Source: a virus
UHGV virus genome: UHGV-0337617
Reading direction: 5' to 3' (one strand)
Length of the DNA stretch: 22,339 nt
This document shows, one piece after another, positions 5,167 through 20,154 of the stretch (its first letter is position 1; every line of letters begins with the position of its first letter). The notes under the pieces were generated by a model that was not told where the DNA came from, made no database searches, and worked only from the letters and a program-made list of their open reading frames with translations. Both the position numbers and the translations under genes were made by a program.

Positions 5167-5538
5167 TCAGAGCCGTATGTTTGTAGCGGGTTCAATACTG
5201 ATAATTTCTGCTGAGATAAGCATCCCGGCAAGCCAGAGCTCTCCGGACAGGTCTTCATCCTGGCATGTCAGTTCGCCAATATTAATGGTGGCCATGATAT
5301 CTGTTTCCCCTGTACGCTCATCCTCGACTTCTTCATAAGGCAGCGTTGCGTACAGGCTTTCAATAGCGCAACTGATAACATCGAGTCCGGTCAGGTTGCC
5401 ACCGACAGTGACTTCGAATGTTTCGCGGTATTCCCATTGCCCGAAAGTTAATCGAACGGTTTGTTTCGCCATGCGTCCGCATGACGTCAGATTTGGGTCA
5501 TAGTTCATTATTTGCGGTTGAGTATTATGAGTGTTCAT
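5167..5538 (-). CDS. Hypothetical protein (123 aa)
   Basis: ORF in leftward operon; no recognised family. Confidence 0.5.
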   Translation of the reverse strand: MNTHNTQPQIMNYDPNLTSCGRMAKQTVRLTFGQWEYRETFEVTVGGNLTGLDVISCAIESLYATLPYEEVEDERTGETDIMATINIGELTCQDEDLSGELWLAGMLISAEIISIEPATNIRL

Positions 5539-6652: not shown

Positions 6653-7045
6653 TCAGAATGGTTTTGTTGCCATCAGTTCGTAATATCCGGCGCTCCATGT
6701 GTCATATTTTCTGAACCATTTTTCTGTATACTGTTTCCTGGCGATGAGTCTGCGCAGTCGTCTGATTGTTCGCTGGTGTGCGCGGGTGTACTCTGTGGTT
6801 GATTCTCCACGTTTCCATATTTCATTCCCGTTGAAGATAAAACGCTTGTCAGGATGGCGTTGTCGGAATCCTGAACGTTCAAAAGCGCGGGTGGTCATAA
6901 AGAATGCCAGGTAACGAATTGCCGTTTTTCGAGTGAGGCATTTTTTTGTTCTTCCGTGATGTGTTACAAAAAATAACGGGCCGACGGGTGTATCATGTTT
7001 CTGTAATGCCTGGTCAATGGCGCTGGCGGTGCGGTTGTCGATCAT
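6653..7045 (-). CDS. Hypothetical basic protein (130 aa)
   Basis: ORF in leftward operon; Arg/Lys-rich C-terminus. Confidence 0.5.
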   Translation of the reverse strand: MIDNRTASAIDQALQKHDTPVGPLFFVTHHGRTKKCLTRKTAIRYLAFFMTTRAFERSGFRQRHPDKRFIFNGNEIWKRGESTTEYTRAHQRTIRRLRRLIARKQYTEKWFRKYDTWSAGYYELMATKPF

Positions 7046-7260
7046 TTCTTTATTTCTCCCGAATAACGTTCATGACTCATTATTTCCCAGTTCCGGCCGT
7101 CGTCTTTCGATAACAGCCGCCAGCGACGGTTAACCTTCAGACTGAGATATCCGTTGCGCTGTATCCGATGCGGGAATATACGTCGGCATCTGTACCGCCG
7201 CAGGACCAGCAACGCCTGCTGGTGGACCCACTCAGGAATTCGCGTTGCTGTTAATGTCAC
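7042..7260 (-). CDS. Hypothetical small basic protein (72 aa)
   Basis: 4-nt overlap with downstream gene; Arg-rich. Confidence 0.45.
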   Translation of the reverse strand: MTLTATRIPEWVHQQALLVLRRYRCRRIFPHRIQRNGYLSLKVNRRWRLLSKDDGRNWEIMSHERYSGEIKK

Positions 7261-7447
7261 TGGTTTCCTCCTGAGCAGGTGCTGTTATCTGATACCCCGC
7301 TCTTTCTGCCAGCCATATGAATGTATCCATGCTGGCAATCAGCTCTCCATCGCGGACTTTGCAGACATCTGTTACCTGGCCATTTTCAATTGTCATAACG
7401 ATCTGCACTTTTTCGTGCACAACAGATACAGGGGATAAATTAGCCAT
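7232..7447 (-). CDS. Hypothetical protein (71 aa)
   Basis: ORF in leftward operon, overlaps neighbours by a few codons. Confidence 0.4.
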   Translation of the reverse strand: MANLSPVSVVHEKVQIVMTIENGQVTDVCKVRDGELIASMDTFIWLAERAGYQITAPAQEETSDINSNANS

Positions 7448-8001: not shown

Positions 8002-8367
8002 TTATTGCGCTAATTCTTTTTCGGCAGCAGTTTTTGCATACTCACATGCAAAATTCAGAATTTCGCTGCCGAGTGTTTTCGTTTCGTGATTACTGGACAT
8101 ATGTAATACCTGTGTTGCATGCAATAAATGATAAACATTTACCGCAAATGAATCAGGCTCCAGACAAATGCCTTCGTAATTATCTTGCTGTGAGGTTGTT
8201 TCTGTCATTGCTTCTGAAGTGCATGCGAGCCTGTTTTTGACAATTCTCTTTCCTCTAATCACTATATCGGCAACATCTATTGCCTTTACAACCTCCGGGA
8301 GAAGTTCCGGGTTTGTATAATCAAAGTCATCAACATGGAGAACAGTTATGTTTTCGAACTTTTTCAT
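8002..8367 (-). CDS. Hypothetical protein (121 aa)
   Basis: ORF diverging from the 8547..8774 gene across a 179-bp intergenic region. Confidence 0.5.
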   Translation of the reverse strand: MKKFENITVLHVDDFDYTNPELLPEVVKAIDVADIVIRGKRIVKNRLACTSEAMTETTSQQDNYEGICLEPDSFAVNVYHLLHATQVLHMSSNHETKTLGSEILNFACEYAKTAAEKELAQ

Positions 8368-8546
8368 GGCTTCCTCAGCTGACTTATATGTCCTGCTATA
8401 TAGCGAGTCTCAGAAGTGTTTTCATATTGAGACTGTTTCCGCAATGATTGATAATCAGTTACCGGATGCTTATCCGTGTCCGGCGCACGACCACACGTAG
8501 CCGCGTGTTGGTCCCCATTTTCAATTCAGCTCTCAATGGAGGATAA

Positions 8547-8774
8547 ATGATTAACGCAGAGCAACTCGAAAAAGAGATTTCAGAACTCAAAAAAGAATTA
8601 ATTTGGCACAAAGTTGCTATCTCCGCATTAATTCGTCAGGTAGTTTCACCTGAAGATAAAGTAAAGTTTATGAAGCAGTTCTCATCTTCATCAAAGGAGT
8701 TTTTCACTGACGAGGTTCATCCAGAGGCTGGATTTTGGATCCGTCAATTATTTTCGCAAGATAAGCGTAAATAG
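8547..8774 (+). CDS. Hypothetical protein (75 aa), N-terminal coiled-coil-like
   Basis: GGAGG RBS 7 nt upstream of ATG; rightward gene inside an otherwise leftward region. Confidence 0.5.
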   Translation: MINAEQLEKEISELKKELIWHKVAISALIRQVVSPEDKVKFMKQFSSSSKEFFTDEVHPEAGFWIRQLFSQDKRK

Positions 8775-8946
8775 CGTCATCAATACTCGCGTCGCTCTTG
8801 AATTTAAGAGCGATGCTCTTTATATCCTCTGAAATTATTACCAGATCACCATATGTTATATTTTTATTATTGCGCGCAGTGCTTTTTTGTATGAAATCAA
8901 GCAATTCACCAATGAGACAAATATGGTAAGCATCACAGTTTTTCAT
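8704..8946 (-). CDS. Hypothetical protein (80 aa from Met15), coupled to the upstream HTH gene
   Basis: ATGA overlap with the stop of 8943..9359; AAGGA RBS; 3' end overlaps convergent 8547..8774 by 71 nt. Confidence 0.4.
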   Translation of the reverse strand: MKNCDAYHICLIGELLDFIQKSTARNNKNITYGDLVIISEDIKSIALKFKSDASIDDAIYAYLAKIIDGSKIQPLDEPRQ

Positions 8947-9359
8947 GCGCAGATATCCTTTGCTGCCGTTTCGCCAGTTAACAGCCACATCGGATCGCAG
9001 CCAAGAATATTTGCCAGTGGGATAAGCATACTGATAGTTGGTTCATACTCTCCGCTCTCCCACTGGATGATAATTTCTTCATCGAGATCGAGCAGCCTGG
9101 CGAGTTCGGCGGTTGTTAAGCCGCAGGCTTCGCGTTGGGTGCGAAGACGGTTGTTGATTGCAGAATTTTTGTTCTGTAAAAGCATTGCTGACGATAGCTT
9201 TCTGGATATGCTATTTGTCATATCCCATGCCAGTCCTGCGCATGACTCTATATCGCTAGAGAGCGTAGCATCAGGTGTTGCTTTTGCTATTAGTGTAATG
9301 AGGCTGCCGAGGTTTTTCAGTTCTTCGAGACAGTCAAGAGTTGTAGCTTTATTGATCAT
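8943..9359 (-). CDS. HTH (XRE-type) DNA-binding protein with the helix-turn-helix at the C-terminus
   Basis: 138 aa; C-terminal LTTAELARLLDLDEEIIIQWESGEYEPTISMLIPLANILGCDPMWLL looks like an XRE HTH; first gene leftward of the OL operator cluster. Confidence 0.6.
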   Translation of the reverse strand: MINKATTLDCLEELKNLGSLITLIAKATPDATLSSDIESCAGLAWDMTNSISRKLSSAMLLQNKNSAINNRLRTQREACGLTTAELARLLDLDEEIIIQWESGEYEPTISMLIPLANILGCDPMWLLTGETAAKDICA

Positions 9360-9364
9360 GAGAT

Positions 9365-9442
9365 GATACCTCAGTTACGAACTTTGTTTTATGGTAACTA
9401 AGGTATCAAGGTGTGGCAAGTGATTTTTGATACTTTGGTTTC
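9365..9442. promoter_or_regulatory. Putative left operator (three 14-bp sites, GATAC-N4-GTNNC class)
   Basis: GATACCTCAGTTAC (9365-9378), GATACCTTAGTTAC (reverse, 9394-9407), GATACTTTGGTTTC (9429-9442); 32-bp centre spacing. Confidence 0.5.
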
Positions 9443-9462: not shown

Positions 9463-10119
9463 TCAGAAAATATCCCACCTGGCATCAACCACAACACCTA
9501 CTATTTCGCAATCATTGTCCATTTCTATGATTGGATATTGTGGATTAAGGGGCTTTAGAAACGCCTTTCCCATGTCAGAAATATATTTTTTGAATGTTGC
9601 TTCATTGGTGGATTTTTTTCTGGCGATGACGTAACACCCTGAAAAAACTTCTTTATCTGGGTTGACAAGGATCGACATTCCTTCAGGAAATGTTATTCCT
9701 ACGGGCGAAGTCATTGAGTCTCCGTGCACTTCCAGCCAGAACCCCCTCTCACCAGCGTATTTTACAGAATGCCTCCAATTATCCTGATCATACATGTTGT
9801 AGTCATCACCAGAAGTTGCGAATAATCCTGCCTGAACCCAGTTAATTACAGGGTAAGAGTGTGCTGTGTCTCTCTGTGGGCAGCTCTTAACATTATTTTC
9901 CCAATGCTTATCTTTTTCATCTCCGTTCTGAAGCCACTGCGGTGAACACCGCAGTGCAGCTGCAACTTTAAAAAGGGTGTCACCGTTGAAACTTTTTGTA
10001 AGGCCTTGCTCGGCTTTACTGATTGCAACTCTGGTGATCCCAGCTTTTTTAGCCAACGCATCTTGTGTTAACCCAGCTTTTTGCCGTGCGTTGATGAGAC
10101 GTTCACCTAAAGACTTCAT
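9463..10119 (-). CDS. cI: cI-like phage repressor with HTH and S24 (LexA-like) autopeptidase domain
   Basis: C-terminal FWLEVHGDSMTSP...FKK...LNPQYP resembles lambda cI; N-terminal HTH (MKSLGERLINARQKAGLTQDALAKKAGI); GAGGAG RBS before Met26 of the longest ORF. Confidence 0.85.
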   Translation of the reverse strand: MKSLGERLINARQKAGLTQDALAKKAGITRVAISKAEQGLTKSFNGDTLFKVAAALRCSPQWLQNGDEKDKHWENNVKSCPQRDTAHSYPVINWVQAGLFATSGDDYNMYDQDNWRHSVKYAGERGFWLEVHGDSMTSPVGITFPEGMSILVNPDKEVFSGCYVIARKKSTNEATFKKYISDMGKAFLKPLNPQYPIIEMDNDCEIVGVVVDARWDIF

Positions 10120-10143
10120 TTTTCTTCTCCTCTCATGGCTGTT

Positions 10144-10213
10144 GATACTAAAGTAACAGAATTTCTTGATACTTTGGATTCCCGCGGTTAACATCGTTGG
10201 ATAACAAAGTATC
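10144..10213. promoter_or_regulatory. Putative right operator (three 14-bp sites of the same class)
   Basis: GATACTAAAGTAAC (10144-10157), GATACTTTGGATTC (10168-10181), GATAACAAAGTATC (10200-10213, palindromic); between divergent cI and rightward genes. Confidence 0.55.
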
Positions 10214-11162: not shown

Positions 11163-11384
11163 AAAAAAGCCGGGAGTAACCCGGCTCACTCAACATCAAT
11201 AACGGGGAGCTGTTTCGCATAAAACGGCTCCGAAACATCCAAGAACAGTTCTAAAGATATCAGCAGCTATATGATCATTTCAAGACCAAATATTGATTCT
11301 GCAATTTCGGGACGTTACACTGTCTCCGCACCTTATAAAGCGGGTGCCGGGGGTCGCAGCCCGGAATTGTCAACGGCGATATAT

Positions 11385-11404
11385 GACGCGCCAGCGTCTT
11401 TTTT
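11385..11404 (+). terminator. Putative intrinsic terminator inside the early-right operon
   Basis: GACGC-GCCA-GCGTC hairpin followed by TTTTTT. Confidence 0.4.
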
Positions 11405-11570
11405 ATCGTCCGCGCTCACGCACGCCAGAATTATGGTGGGCTGGGCAGGGGAGCCGAAAGGCTCGCCGGTCTCCGTTGACGCCGGTACTGCGAACCCTGT
11501 TCAGTCTGCCACCAGTGAGTTTCGCAGCTCCGGTGGTGGAAGTTTTCCACAGTCAACGGAGGCTGCCATC

Positions 11571-12122
11571 ATGGCTACGATCCCAACCCTCACTCAACCT
11601 GAAATTGCCATCGTTGATGGTCAGGCTGTTACTTCATCCCTGGCTGTTGCCAACTTCTTCTCCAAGCGTCATGACGATGTACTGAAAAAGATCCGCACGC
11701 TTGAATGCTCCGCATCATTCACTGCCCGCAATTTTTCGGTGAGTGATTACACCGATTGCACAGGCCGCAAACTACCTTGCTATCAAATCACCCGTGATGG
11801 CTTCGCGTTCCTTGCTATGGGCTTTACTGGCAAACGTGCAGCCCGGTTCAAAGAGGCATACATCAACGCCTTTAACCTGATGGAGAAGAGTTTATCAGGT
11901 GCCGATGCGTCTGATATGTCAGCTGTCGCACGAAACGCCAGAGGCGTATACCTGCATTTGCGTGAAATCCATCAAATCTGGACAAGCCAGCTTTATCCAA
12001 TGCTTAAGGCCGTTGAATCTCCGCTGGCTAGCAAACTGTACGACCGTGTTGGTGATGCTGTTTTTGGCGCTGCACTTGTTGATTCCAGGCTGAATGGTTC
12101 TGACAAGGAGGTTCGCCCATGA
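11571..12122 (+). CDS. Rha-family phage regulatory protein (second copy, divergent sequence)
   Basis: GGAGG 8 nt upstream of ATG at 11571; PEIAIVDGQAVTSSLAVANFFSKRHDDVLKKIRTL is Rha-like; the ORF is open upstream to 11271 but that extension is low-complexity. Confidence 0.6.
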   Translation: MATIPTLTQPEIAIVDGQAVTSSLAVANFFSKRHDDVLKKIRTLECSASFTARNFSVSDYTDCTGRKLPCYQITRDGFAFLAMGFTGKRAARFKEAYINAFNLMEKSLSGADASDMSAVARNARGVYLHLREIHQIWTSQLYPMLKAVESPLASKLYDRVGDAVFGAALVDSRLNGSDKEVRP

Positions 12123-19462: not shown

Positions 19463-19538
19463 GGCCCTTTAGCTCAGTGGTGAGAGCGAGCGACTCATAA
19501 TCGCCAGGTCGCTGGTTCAAATCCAGCAAGGGCCACCA
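19463..19538 (+). tRNA. tRNA with CAT anticodon (Ile2/Met type; ileZ-like)
   Basis: Hand-folded cloverleaf: acceptor GGCCCTT/AAGGGCC, D-stem GCTC/GAGC, anticodon loop CTCATAA, T-arm GCTGG-TTCAAAT-CCAGC, 3' CCA. Confidence 0.8.
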
Positions 19539-19547
19539 TATCACATA

Positions 19548-19624
19548 CCGCCATTAGCTCATCGGGATAGAGCGCCAGCCTTCGAAGCTGGTTGCGCGGG
19601 GTTCGAGTCCTCGATGGCGGTCCA
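19548..19624 (+). tRNA. tRNA-Arg (anticodon TCG; argN-like)
   Basis: Acceptor CCGCCAT/ATGGCGG, anticodon stem CCAGC/GCTGG with loop CTTCGAA, T-arm CGGGG-TTCGAGT-CCTCG, 3' CCA. Confidence 0.8.
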
Positions 19625-19637
19625 TTATCTGTACCCT

Positions 19638-19714
19638 GCGTTGTTAGCTCAGCCGGACAGAGCAATTGCCTTCTAAGCAATCGGTCACTGGTTCGAATCC
19701 AGTACAACGCGCCA
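19638..19714 (+). tRNA. tRNA-Arg (anticodon TCT; argO-like)
   Basis: Acceptor GCGTTGT/ACAACGC, anticodon loop CTTCTAA, T-arm ACTGG-TTCGAAT-CCAGT, 3' CCA. Confidence 0.8.
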
Positions 19715-19753: not shown

Positions 19754-19952
19754 AAATGTCTCACAATTCAGACGGTTGACAGTTGTCTGTTTTGCGGGGA
19801 GTTTGTTAAAAGAAACTGGCATGGTGAATCCCCCTGTGCGGAGGGGCAATCAGCGAGTAGGTATATGGGATAATCGCGGATTCAGGTGCTGGTACTGAAT
19901 TCACCGGGAGGCACCCGGCACCATGCAGTTGACTGAAACCATGTATACTCTC

Positions 19953-19983
19953 AGGCCCCACGCACATGTGTTGGGGCCTTTTT
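19953..19983 (+). terminator. Putative intrinsic terminator upstream of the lysis cassette
   Basis: GGCCCCA / TGGGGCC perfect 7-bp stem with 11-nt loop, followed by TTTTT. Confidence 0.5.
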
Positions 19984-20154
19984 ACATGCAAAAAAAAGCC
20001 CGCATATGGATACGGGCGGCAAGGAACAAAAAACGTGAAGTGATCTATTCAGCCAGTGGATAATACCCTGACGTTACCATATTGCGCAATCGCGCATTCT
20101 TTCTTTTTCGCTCCCCTTATAACTACGCCATCCGTTCGCTGCGGAGGTGAGGCT

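What the first reader, a model, noticed from the sequence alone, without database searches (positions are those of the whole stretch)
8547..9359. HTH regulator plus small partner gene at the head of the leftward operon, with a convergent overlapping gene
The first gene leftward of the operator (the position lambda N occupies) is a 138-aa protein with a C-terminal XRE-like HTH. It is translationally coupled (ATGA) to an 80-aa protein, whose 3' end overlaps by 71 nt an oppositely oriented 75-aa gene with a strong GGAGG RBS. A regulator plus small effector beside the repressor is where lambdoid phages commonly carry exclusion or toxin-antitoxin-like cargo; none of the three proteins matches a family I recognise.
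Basis: partly seen in the sequence, partly recalled or inferred. Interest (0 to 1): 0.6.

Follow-up and report, generated by a model that had tools for sequence, protein, structure and literature searches.

The report
Prophage regulator plus convergent two-gene cargo cassette
The three genes are real: the DNA-binding one is a standard early gene of this E. coli prophage group, and the two small facing genes are an optional insert of unknown function whose rightward gene carries a folded RNA leader shared by many unrelated small prophage genes and absent from Rfam 15.

Summary

The HTH protein is not cargo. It is the conserved first gene after the CI-like repressor in phiP27-like E. coli prophages. 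It is usually 216-230 aa with two XRE HTH domains, and it mostly occurs without the small genes.

The two small genes form an accessory cassette of about 0.55 kb, inserted between the HTH gene and the next conserved gene. Only 32 of 5426 complete E. coli genomes carry it. Both ORFs look coding:
- They are intact in 21 distinct loci.
- pN/pS is about 0.2 in their own frames.
- The whole trio recurs at 32/38/62% identity in a diverged locus.

Both proteins are predicted three-helix orphans with no sequence or fold match.

The 75-aa gene looks like a self-contained moron, with its own promoter-like site, an 85-nt structured leader and a 3' hairpin. The leader has three hairpins, the last pairing with the ribosome-binding site. 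Covariation supports it. It precedes about 20 unrelated small ORFs in prophages and matches no Rfam 15 family.

My best model is an excludon-like switch between lysogeny and lytic growth. An exclusion-plus-antidote function is inferred only.

The parts
9463..10119 (-). CI-like repressor (LexA/S24 family). Context for the finding, not part of it.
   Evidence: Pfam Peptidase_S24 and HTH_3. PGAP annotates a 'LexA family protein'.
9364..9442 (.). OL-like operator cluster, with a PL promoter-like site at 9419-9391 on the minus strand
   Evidence: Motif TTGATACYWWRG at 9398-9409 and 9427-9438, plus an inverted copy at 9364-9378. The same motif occurs in the cI-cro gap at 10142-10213. Enrichment is 5 matches against 0.51 expected. 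Promoter-like TTGCCA-17-TACCAT.
8943..9359 (-). 138-aa XRE-family HTH regulator, the first gene of the leftward early operon. It is the single-HTH form of a family that usually has two HTH domains. The N-terminal helical domain of about 65 aa is of unknown function.
   Evidence: HTH_3 at aa 72-126. phrog_4739, E = 2.6e-84. The closest solved relatives are the DNA-binding domains of the P22 C2 and 434 repressors.
8704..8946 (-). 80-aa acidic protein, predicted as three helices. It is translationally coupled (ATGA) to the HTH gene and is the leftward half of the cassette.
   Evidence: phrog_23054, function unknown. pN/pS about 0.2. AF2 gives pLDDT 69 with helices at 4-26, 32-49 and 55-67. Only one remote homologue was found among 1.84 billion representatives. 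No fold match.
8547..8774 (+). 75-aa helical protein, the cargo ORF of a moron-like unit. It is convergent with the 80-aa gene.
   Evidence: phrog_20080. Annotated by PGAP as WP_000606214. pN/pS about 0.2. 62% identical in the diverged locus L153. AF2 predicts three helices at pLDDT 67. No fold match.
8462..8546 (+). Structured 5' leader with three hairpins: HP1 8462-8483, HP2 8489-8513, and HP3, in which the anti-SD at 8513-8519 pairs with the SD region at 8535-8541.
   Evidence: Covariance-model hit at 8460-8549, 103.6 bits. 92% of cells are paired, against 20-48% in slid controls, and 10 pairs change on both sides. Folds. No Rfam match.
8427..8455 (+). Sigma-70 promoter-like site for the 75-aa gene. 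The predicted start is at about 8461-8463, at the foot of HP1.
   Evidence: TTGAGA-17-GATAAT, 10 of 12 matches. Each of at least five unrelated upstream contexts supplies its own -10-like hexamer 5-7 nt before the leader.
8789..8816 (+). Terminator-like hairpin 15 nt after the 75-aa stop codon. It lies inside the 80-aa coding sequence and is unidirectional.
   Evidence: 12-bp stem followed by TCTTTATATC. Free energy -19.2 kcal/mol, z = -3.65. L153 has a different GC-rich hairpin at the same relative position.
8368..8946 (.). The accessory insertion, measured against relatives in which the HTH gene is ATGA-coupled directly to the 121-aa gene. Measured against strain SF-088, the replaced segment is 8448-8973.
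   Evidence: Alignment with SF-088 and RM12579. L201 junction. An 8-bp direct repeat, ATGAAAAA on the minus strand, sits at 8360-8367 and 8939-8946.
8002..8367 (-). Next conserved early-left gene (121 aa; PGAP calls only the last 68 aa). Context only.
   Evidence: phrog_5451. Its C-terminal half is 45% identical to the N-terminal domain of the 230-aa HTH form P0084.

Best explanation
Two things lie side by side.

(1) The 138-aa protein is a core early regulator of this phiP27-like prophage group. It is an XRE-type DNA-binding protein and the first gene transcribed from the CI-controlled leftward promoter. Its DNA target is unknown. It is not an N analogue and it is not cargo.

(2) A cassette of about 0.55 kb has been inserted between this gene and the next conserved gene. 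The cassette holds two convergent genes whose 3' ends overlap.
- The rightward 75-aa gene is a self-contained moron. It has its own sigma-70 promoter, an 85-nt three-hairpin leader whose last hairpin pairs with the ribosome-binding site, the ORF, and a 3' hairpin.
- The leftward 80-aa gene has no promoter of its own. It has taken over the ATGA coupling site at the end of the HTH gene, so it is made only when PL fires.

Proposed operation (inferred):
- In the lysogen, CI shuts PL. Only the 75-aa protein is made, at a level set by the leader.
- On induction or infection, PL transcription runs antisense through the moron. This lowers 75-aa expression through transcriptional interference and antisense pairing, which is the excludon logic. 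It also delivers the 80-aa protein.

Most likely biological role (inferred, about 0.3): the 75-aa protein gives a prophage-expressed host-protection or exclusion function, and the 80-aa protein neutralises or replaces it during the phage's own lytic growth.

Shown here: the anatomy, the coding status, the accessory nature of the cassette, the core status of the HTH gene, and the leader structure. Not shown: expression timing, interference, protein function and any 75/80 interaction.
For: HTH gene is core:
- It always follows the CI-like gene, across four or more immunity types.
- The common forms are 216-230 aa with two HTH domains and are seen on hundreds to more than 1000 contigs.
- The operator motif lies on both sides of cI.

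Cassette is accessory:
- It is absent from SF-088, RM12579, L140-L142 and L201, and the HTH gene and the 121/66-aa gene that flank its position are present in all of them.
- Only 32 of 5426 genomes cover at least 80% of the locus.

Both ORFs are coding:
-.
- The diverged trio in L153.

The 75-aa gene is an autonomous unit:
- Promoter-like and terminator-like sites.
- The leader is the most conserved part of the cassette, with 5 variable sites in 92.
- The leader structure shows compensatory changes.
- The same leader precedes about 20 unrelated small ORFs.
- The dominant ORFs downstream lie on the opposite strand in 111 of 121 contexts.

Precedent for the position and logic:
- In K-12, ymfI/ymfJ lie downstream of the repressor gene ymfK and overlap by 63 nt.
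- sieB/ydaF lie downstream of racR.
- Both pairs are listed as convergent excludons from RNA-seq (PMC12288877).
- ymfJ is induced late in the SOS response (PMC11002266).
- sieB, a known exclusion gene, occupies the cargo position in Rac.
Against: - There are no expression data for this locus. The promoter, the terminator and the interference are sequence predictions only.
- The 3' hairpin has a poor U-tract, and in L153 it has none.
- Co-occurrence of the 75-aa and 80-aa genes could be pure linkage, because nothing conserved lies between them for recombination to act on.
- Neither protein matches any toxin, defence or anti-defence family or fold.
- The AF2 models have only moderate confidence (pLDDT 67-69, from alignments of 4-5 sequences).
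- In the window itself one base change (UCUCCAUU to UCCCCAUU) weakens the SD-sequestering hairpin.
- The covariation count was made on an alignment fitted to the model. Part of the leader was also fixed by the search pattern, so HP1 is untested.
Confidence: 0.55

Rival explanations
1. Independent neighbours. The 80-aa gene is just one more early-left gene. The 75-aa gene is an unrelated solitary moron. They were acquired together, or one after the other, and the 3' overlap is only genome compaction. There is no functional pairing and no regulatory interference of consequence.
For: - Co-variation of the two halves is expected from linkage alone.
- The overlap region is the most variable part of the cassette (14 variable sites in 71), and it covers the variable C-terminal tail of the 80-aa protein, whose last residues (76-80) have pLDDT below 50.
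- The same leader drives many cargos in other contexts, including between cro and rha (L007).
Against: - The pair stays together, and still overlaps (89 nt), in a locus diverged to 38% and 62% identity.
- In all 21 distinct loci the two are found together, and no 80-aa homologue was found on its own.
- In Qin-like prophages each cargo type also comes with its own C-terminal variant of the convergent gene.
Confidence: 0.3
2. One reading: a type II toxin-antitoxin-like or regulator-effector pair. The HTH protein would be an antitoxin or autoregulator, and the ATGA-coupled 80-aa protein its toxin or effector.
For: - The gene order and 4-nt overlap resemble XRE-antitoxin/toxin operons.
- The HTH domain gives weak generic hits to HipB-type and MqsA-type antitoxin models and to capH and RmrA.
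Against: - The HTH family occurs mostly without the 80-aa gene. In L201 the same ATGA site couples it to the 121-aa gene instead.
- The hits are confined to the generic HTH domain and fall below the family cutoffs.
- The 80-aa protein has no toxin family or fold and is acidic and helical.
- The promoter upstream carries CI operator motifs, not a private autoregulated site.
Confidence: 0.08
3. Only one of the two overlapping small ORFs is a real gene. The other strand serves only as antisense RNA or is an annotation artefact.
For: - PGAP annotates only the 75-aa ORF.
- The phiP27 record annotates neither in this frame.
- The terminator-like hairpin of the 75-aa unit lies inside the 80-aa ORF.
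Against: - Both ORFs are intact in all variants, with pN/pS about 0.2 in their non-overlapping parts.
- Both are kept as ORFs with recognisable protein similarity in L153.
- A Shine-Dalgarno-like AAGGA/GGGGA precedes the 80-aa start in both tail variants.
Confidence: 0.05
4. The HTH protein is the dedicated regulator of the adjacent moron. For example, it would shut off the 75-aa promoter on induction.
For: Adjacency only. The HTH protein would be produced exactly when the moron should be silenced.
Against: - The HTH family is conserved in prophages that have no cassette, so its primary target must lie elsewhere.
- The same leader and cargo units occur in Qin-like prophages that have no such HTH gene next to them.
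Confidence: 0.07

Closest known systems
E. coli K-12 e14 prophage: ymfK (cohE) - ymfJ / ymfI
   Same: - A LexA-like CI repressor gene is followed on the same strand by a small early gene (ymfJ).
- That gene overlaps a convergent gene on the other strand (ymfI) by 63 nt.
- The pair is listed as a convergent excludon (PMC12288877).
- ymfJ is induced late in the SOS response, like a CI-controlled gene (PMC11002266).
- YmfI-family proteins are among the cargos that follow the leader in other prophages.
   Different: - There is no sequence similarity to the 75-aa or 80-aa proteins.
- e14 has no HTH gene between the repressor and the pair.
- ymfI in K-12 lacks the leader: the covariance model finds no hit in L139.
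- The functions of ymfI and ymfJ are themselves unknown.
Rac prophage sieB facing ydaF-ydaG downstream of racR; more generally P22/lambda sieB (and its internal product Esc), and lambda rexAB
   Same: - A prophage exclusion or abortive-infection gene sits next to the repressor gene.
- In Rac it lies on the strand opposite to the early-left genes, and its 3' end abuts ydaF with a 4-nt overlap.
- sieB-ydaF is listed as an excludon.
- From general knowledge of P22: the sieB/esc logic is an exclusion function plus a phage-encoded escape function. That is the functional model proposed here.
   Different: - There is no homology.
- From general knowledge, SieB is a larger protein, about 160-190 aa, with hydrophobic segments.
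- No leader hit was found near sieB.
- Exclusion activity of the 75-aa protein is untested.
Morons (Juhala et al. 2000; reviewed in 'The moron comes of age', PMC3594210, listed)
   Same: - An independent transcription unit (promoter, ORF, terminator-like hairpin).
- Present in some related prophage genomes and absent in others.
- Inserted between two conserved genes.
   Different: - Here the insert carries a second gene on the other strand, wired into the phage's early operon.
- The cargo gene uses a conserved structured leader shared among many unrelated cargos, which is not part of the moron definition.
XRE/Cro-CI family phage regulators (P22 C2 and 434 repressor DNA-binding domains; DicA)
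   Same: The HTH domain of the 138-aa protein aligns with the P22 C2 and 434 repressor DNA-binding domains (E = 2e-6 to 8e-4) and with the DicA model NF007257 (46 bits).
   Different: - The DicA score is far below that model's cutoff of 101 bits.
- The HTH is C-terminal to an unrelated helical domain of about 65 aa.
- There is no S24 peptidase or dimerisation domain.
- Family members usually carry two tandem HTH domains.
- The gene is under CI control rather than being the immunity repressor.

Membership tests
XRE / HTH_3 (PF01381) DNA-binding proteins | Score above the Pfam gathering threshold over the full HTH domain | tested here: met
   43.9 bits against a cutoff of 23, covering aa 72-126 and model positions 1-55 of 55. 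PDB relatives are P22 C2 and the 434 repressor.
Lambda N-type antiterminator | Sequence similarity to an N family (arginine-rich RNA-binding motif) at the first PL position | tested here: not met
   Pfam, PHROGs and NCBIfam return only HTH regulator families. The protein is a DNA-binding HTH protein. nut-like sites were not searched for.
DicA (NF007257) / RstR / HipB-type or MqsA-type antitoxins | Score above the NCBIfam curated cutoff | tested here: not met
   DicA 46 bits against 101, RstR 26.3 against 80, HipB-type 25.9 against 71.65, MqsA 25 against 61.8. All hits cover only the generic HTH.
Type II toxin-antitoxin pair | The downstream partner belongs to a toxin family, and the pair co-occurs as a unit | tested here: not met
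   The 80-aa protein matches no Pfam, NCBIfam or PADLOC family. The HTH family mostly occurs without it.
Type II toxin-antitoxin pair | Toxicity of one partner that the other neutralises | not testable with these tools
   This needs expression experiments.
Known anti-phage defence systems (PADLOC-DB 2.0) | A significant match of any component to a defence-system model | tested here: not met
   There were only generic HTH hits (RmrA, capH) for the 138-aa protein. The 75-aa protein gave nothing. The 80-aa protein gave DUF2290 at E = 0.0066, which is not significant. The other leader cargos gave nothing.
Moron | Present or absent between otherwise collinear related phages, and inserted between conserved genes | tested here: met
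   The insertion is 579 bp relative to L201 and is bounded by an 8-bp repeat.
Moron | Own promoter and terminator, with expression from the repressed prophage | tested here: inconclusive
   The promoter-like site (10 of 12) and the strong hairpin are predictions only. Expression was not measured.
Excludon (convergent genes with overlapping transcripts and mutually exclusive expression) | Convergent genes whose transcripts must overlap | tested here: met
   The coding sequences themselves overlap, by 71 nt here and 89 nt in L153.
Excludon (convergent genes with overlapping transcripts and mutually exclusive expression) | Reciprocal expression, or RNase III-dependent or interference-dependent repression | not testable with these tools
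   This needs strand-specific RNA-seq with and without induction. The analogous K-12 pairs are listed as excludons.
Any Rfam 15 RNA family (for the leader) | A covariance-model match at the gathering score, or at E below 1-5 | tested here: not met
   There was no hit at 8455-8549 at the gathering threshold or at E <= 5. Four other leader types gave no hit at E <= 1.

The most novel reading that the evidence does not exclude
The 85-nt leader would define an undescribed class of riboregulated expression platform for prophage accessory genes in E. coli. It has a 5'-terminal hairpin, a variable-sequence hairpin and an SD-sequestering hairpin. Its cassettes would be two-part lysogeny/lysis modules: a small protein made from the silent prophage, for host protection or exclusion, paired with a cognate partner encoded on the opposite strand inside the early lytic operon. 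That partner would switch the small protein off or neutralise it when the phage itself grows. The 75-aa/80-aa pair in this window would be one such module among about 20 cargo types.
Probability: 0.3. Interest if true: 0.8.

Novelty: new variant of a known kind. Interest (0 to 1): 0.6.

Why it matters
- The locus gives a clean, small test case of about 0.55 kb for how prophage accessory genes are wired to the lysogeny/lysis switch. One gene has its own promoter and faces a partner that can only be made from PL.
- The shared structured leader is the wider point. It precedes about 20 unrelated small ORFs, including YmfI-family proteins, a zinc-ribbon protein and proline-rich 30-mers. DNA matching part of the 1.1-kb query lies in 1047 of 5426 complete E. 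coli genomes; in the sampled rows most of these matches, including those in O157:H7, cover only the leader. It matches no Rfam family.
- If the leader controls translation, it is a handle for finding and studying a whole set of unannotated lysogen-expressed small proteins. It could also serve as a portable expression element.
- If the cargo/partner pairing is functional, it would be a general self-immunity design for prophage exclusion genes.

Tried and rejected
- Family searches. Pfam, PHROGs, NCBIfam and PADLOC on the three proteins gave only generic HTH hits and PHROGs of unknown function.
- Homologue searches for the small proteins. The word-indexed search of 5.8 billion proteins found only homologues at 71% identity or more.
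- Full HMMER search with the 80-aa profile. Across 1.84 billion representatives it found one real remote homologue, P0133, and one dubious repeat-protein hit.
- Structure. AF2 models of both small proteins (pLDDT 69 and 67) gave no Foldseek match with E below 1 in PDB or BFVD. PDB sequence profiles gave nothing.
- The idea that the 80-aa ORF is a split-off second HTH domain of the 218-aa forms is rejected. There is no similarity, and the long forms carry a true second HTH.
- The idea that the leader is a known sRNA (DicF, AgvB/AsxR anti-sRNAs, IsrK, STnc100) is rejected. Those Rfam hits lie elsewhere, and the anti-sRNAs of Tree et al. map to the PR' region.
- An exact-sequence search of the literature for the leader core found no paper.
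- A scan of species-representative genomes for the type-A leader found only chance hits in GC-rich MAGs.
- RNAalifold on a plain MAFFT alignment missed HP2 because of register shifts. This was solved with a covariance-model alignment.
- Megablast of one non-A leader locus against the phage records found nothing.
Full report
**Where the window comes from**

The window is identical to a chromosomal prophage of E. coli strain ZH063 (100% over the 1.1 kb searched). Its early region is about 94% identical to that of the Stx2e phage phiP27, genes L08-L11.

**The observation**

- A LexA/S24-type CI-like repressor lies at 9463-10119 on the minus strand.
- A 104-bp gap follows.
- The 138-aa ORF is at 8943-9359 (-), with Pfam HTH_3 at aa 72-126.
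- The 80-aa ORF is at 8704-8946 (-). Its ATG overlaps the TGA of the HTH gene.
- The convergent 75-aa ORF is at 8547-8774 (+). It is preceded by GGAGG at 8538-8542 and overlaps the 80-aa ORF by 71 nt.

A motif, TTGATACYWWRG, occurs five times in the window against 0.51 expected by chance. Four of the five flank the repressor gene: 9398-9409 and 9427-9438 on the left, 10142-10153 and 10166-10177 on the right. Related inverted copies lie at 9364-9378 and 10200-10213. A promoter-like site on the minus strand, 9419-9391, overlaps the left cluster. The HTH gene is therefore very probably the first gene of a CI-controlled leftward operon.

**Are the small ORFs genes?**

I collected ten distinct sequence variants of the cassette and later 21 distinct loci.
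- Both ORFs and the 71-nt overlap are intact in all of them. The one exception is the phiP27 record, which has one extra A in an A-run of the 75-aa ORF.
- In the non-overlapping parts, variable sites favour the third codon position (13 of 22 and 12 of 22).
- Pairwise pN/pS against the window is about 0.2 in each ORF's own frame. In the other frames it is 0.44 to above 3, apart from the one antisense frame that shares wobble positions.
- A full HMMER search of 1.84 billion representative proteins with the 80-aa profile found one real remote homologue, P0133 (86 aa, E = 1.9e-5).
- The contig of that homologue (L153) carries the whole arrangement again: a CI-like gene, a 139-aa single-HTH protein (32% identical), the 86-aa protein (38%) starting one base after the HTH stop, and a convergent 76-aa protein (62%) that overlaps it by 89 nt.

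Both small ORFs are therefore real genes with high probability. The trio is an old association, not a one-off.

**The HTH protein is a core gene, not cargo**

- Its homologues sit directly downstream of the CI-like gene in every related prophage examined. These prophages span at least four immunity types, with repressors of 218, 229, 230 and 128 aa.
- The commonest forms are 216-230 aa and carry two tandem XRE HTH domains behind a variable N-terminal domain of 65-85 aa. One such protein, P0084, is seen on more than 1000 contigs.
- The window's 138-aa protein is a single-HTH form. Its HTH begins like HTH1 of the long forms and ends like HTH2 (PLANILGCDPMWLLTGE). It looks like a recombinational collapse of the two repeats.
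- The N-terminal domain type changed together with the repressor type in my sample. This could be simple linkage or real specificity.
- The HTH domain is closest to the DNA-binding domains of the P22 C2 and 434 repressors. It falls well below the cutoffs of the DicA, RstR, HipB and MqsA models.
- No N-like family matches.

The DNA target and role of this regulator remain unknown. PHROGs labels a neighbouring family 'CII-like regulator' (phrog_4836), but that is an annotation, not a test.

**The two small genes are an insertion**

- In strains SF-088 and RM12579, the segment 8448-8973 is replaced by about 165 bp. The HTH protein there simply runs on to 166 aa.
- In L201, which has the same immunity type, a 218-aa two-HTH protein ends ...GATACTTGCGCATGAAAAAGTTCGAAAAC. 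It is ATGA-coupled directly to the 121-aa gene, which in the window lies at 8002-8367.
- Relative to L201, the window has 579 extra bases (8368-8946), bounded by the 8-bp repeat ATGAAAAA. The 80-aa gene has taken over the pre-existing coupling site.
- In the commonest arrangement, the 230-aa protein is followed after 5 nt by the short form of the next gene.
- Only 32 of 5426 complete E. coli genomes cover at least 80% of the locus.

The unit of cargo is the convergent 80-aa/75-aa pair.

**The 75-aa gene looks like a self-contained transcription unit**

- A promoter-like site, TTGAGA-17-GATAAT (10 of 12), lies at 8427-8455.
- A 12-bp hairpin (-19.2 kcal/mol, z = -3.65) lies 15 nt after the stop codon, inside the 80-aa coding sequence. 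A moderately U-rich tail follows it on the plus strand only.
- L153 has its own ATGATA-16-TATAAT promoter-like site and a different GC-rich hairpin at the same relative positions.
- No minus-strand terminator was predicted between 8704 and 8367. PL transcripts should therefore read through the unit in antisense.

**The leader**

The roughly 90 bases between the -10 box and the ATG are the most conserved part of the cassette, with 5 variable sites in 92. Part of the 1.1-kb query matches in 1047 of 5426 complete E. coli genomes. In the sampled rows most of these matches, including many in O157:H7 genomes, cover only the leader bases (query 56-148) and usually carry no annotation.

Pattern scans of IMG/VR gave about 170 instances and 45 distinct leaders. 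The leader precedes about 20 unrelated small ORFs:
- the 75-aa protein of this window
- a 69-aa protein in O157 prophages
- two YmfI-family proteins (NF051477, with a weak GhoS hit)
- a zinc-ribbon 80-mer
- proline-rich peptides of 30-32 aa
- several others

None of these cargos matches a PADLOC model.

At least five unrelated upstream contexts each supply their own -10-like hexamer 5-7 nt before the conserved sequence begins. Conservation therefore starts at about the transcription start.

The RNA is predicted to form three hairpins.
- HP1, at the 5' end.
- HP2. Its sequence differs between types (CCACACG/CGUGUGG, CCUCACG/CGUGAGG, CUCUAC/GUGGAG, CUCCAC/GUGGAG, CCACA/UGUGG, CCCUAC/GUAGGG, CUCCAU/AUGGAG) but it forms a hairpin in all 19 distinct variants; the fold beats shuffles clearly (at most 3.3% do as well) in 15 and is weak in 4.
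- HP3, in which CUCCAU(U) pairs with (A)AUGGAG of the ribosome-binding site. The L154/L183 type has the compensatory switch to CUCCUU/AAGGAG.

A covariance model built from nine type-A leaders recovered all the other types (28-68 bits). On the resulting alignment:
- 92% of cells are paired, against 20-48% when partners are slid.
- 10 of 23 pairs change on both sides (7 of 10 in HP2, 3 of 6 in HP3).
- 0 of 500 shuffles reach the observed covariation.

G-U pairs are frequent, which places the structure on the sense RNA.

Caveats:
- The alignment is fitted to the model.
- HP1's 3' arm was fixed by my search pattern.
- All sequences are from close enterobacterial prophages.

No Rfam 15 family matches. 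An exact-sequence literature search found nothing.

The dominant ORFs downstream of the leader-driven ORF lie on the opposite strand in 111 of 121 distinct contexts.

In Qin-like prophages, each cargo type comes with its own C-terminal variant of the convergent 'MEFKDLP...' protein. This is the same two-part pattern as here.

K-12 retains a decayed copy (promoter, HP1 and HP2, but no cargo) between ydfC and dicF on the minus strand.

**The proteins**

- The 80-aa protein is acidic. AF2 predicts three helices (pLDDT 69, pTM 0.52).
- The 75-aa protein is predicted as a long N-terminal helix plus two more (pLDDT 67, pTM 0.39).
- Neither has a Foldseek match with E below 1, nor a PDB sequence match.
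- In the overlap, the conserved C-terminal helix of the 75-aa protein (HPEAGFWIRQLF) faces the variable tail of the 80-aa protein (only residues 76-80 have pLDDT below 50). The 75-aa gene therefore sets the constraint there.
- The 75-aa protein evolves much more slowly than its partner (62% against 38% identity in L153).

**How it most likely works**

Shown here:
- the anatomy
- the coding status of both ORFs
- the accessory nature of the pair
- the core status of the HTH gene
- the operator motifs
- the leader structure

Inferred:
- In the lysogen, CI keeps PL off. Only the 75-aa gene is transcribed, and translation is limited by the SD-sequestering hairpin.
- On induction, PL transcription produces the HTH regulator and, by coupling, the 80-aa protein.
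- The same transcription runs antisense through the 75-aa unit and lowers its expression.

This is the excludon logic. The analogous K-12 pairs, ymfI-ymfJ downstream of ymfK and sieB-ydaF downstream of racR, are listed as convergent excludons from RNA-seq (PMC12288877). ymfJ behaves as a late SOS, CI-type-controlled gene (PMC11002266). sieB, a known exclusion gene, occupies the cargo position in Rac.

My preferred function is a prophage-expressed exclusion or host-protection protein (75 aa) with a lytic-phase neutraliser (80 aa). I put this at about 0.3. It rests on position, orientation and persistent pairing, not on homology.

**Rivals**

- The two genes are functionally independent neighbours (0.3).
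- A toxin-antitoxin-like HTH/80-aa pair (0.08). This is contradicted by the HTH family's independence from the 80-aa gene and by the lack of any toxin signature.
- Only one ORF is real (0.05).
- The HTH protein is the moron's regulator (0.07).

**Verdict**

The cassette is a new variant of known kinds (moron, excludon). The shared structured leader is the most interesting by-product and deserves its own follow-up.

Noticed in passing
window 8462-8546; also L016 2505-2596, L007 2265-2355, L153 2401-2486 (-), L154, L164 and others: A conserved three-hairpin 5' leader whose last hairpin pairs with the SD. It precedes about 20 unrelated small ORFs in enterobacterial prophages. Matches that cover only the leader make up most of the 1047 (of 5426) complete E. 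coli genomes hit by the query, judging from the sampled rows. It matches no Rfam 15 family. In the non-A types the HP2 arms (CUCCAY/RUGGAG) copy the anti-SD and SD, so an alternative pairing could free the SD.
   Followed up: yes
L016 2594-3454 (O157 strain 644-PT8) and many IMG/VR loci: In Qin-like prophages the gene convergent with the leader-driven ORF is a 'MEFKDLP...' protein. Its N-terminus is conserved. Its C-terminal part (forms of 216, 186, 137, 126 and 105 aa) changes together with the cargo ORF type.
   Followed up: partly
L164, L172, L191, L197, L155, L181 (downstream of the leader): Some leaders drive proline-rich peptides of 30-32 aa, for example MRINQFGGTERPRPDGQVPYRPTPAPKPKK. 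In composition they are reminiscent of proline-rich antimicrobial peptides.
   Followed up: no
NC_000913.3 about 1,649,072-1,649,131 (L203 19073-19132, minus strand): K-12 Qin carries a decayed leader copy between ydfC and dicF, facing the 3' end of ydfC. It has a -10 box, HP1 and HP2, but no SD and no cargo (covariance model 26 bits, E = 3e-4). It may give an antisense or small RNA.
   Followed up: partly
window 11328-11404 and 11429-11516 (+): Rfam hits at the gathering threshold to isrK and to C4 antisense RNA. They lie at the 5' end of the 283-aa Rha-family ORF (11271-12122). This suggests a second, RNA-based antirepressor or immunity module of the P1 c4/ant or Gifsy IsrK type.
   Followed up: no
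window 19463-19711 and 19790-19989 (+): Three tRNA genes and an STnc100 sRNA match (140 bits) in the rightward part of the window.
   Followed up: no
window 7042-7260 (-) and 7232-7447 (-): PGAP names the 72-aa ORF a ParE-family toxin-like protein. It overlaps the preceding 71-aa ORF. This is a possible toxin-antitoxin pair inside the early-left operon, and it is conserved in related prophages (L140).
   Followed up: no
window 8002-8367 (-): The C-terminal half of the 121-aa ORF is 45% identical to the N-terminal domain of the 230-aa two-HTH regulator P0084. It is thus a free-standing copy of the regulator's N-terminal domain, encoded just downstream. PGAP annotates only its last 68 aa.
   Followed up: partly
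L001 (phiP27 NC_003356) about 5170-5200: The phiP27 reference has one extra A in an A-run of the 75-aa ORF. L09 is therefore annotated in a different frame, and the 80-aa gene is not annotated at all. This is either a sequencing error or a real frameshift.
   Followed up: partly
window 8360-8367 and 8939-8946: An 8-bp direct repeat (ATGAAAAA on the minus strand) bounds the 579-bp insertion relative to the L201 arrangement. This is consistent with microhomology-mediated insertion at the start codon of the next gene.
   Followed up: partly
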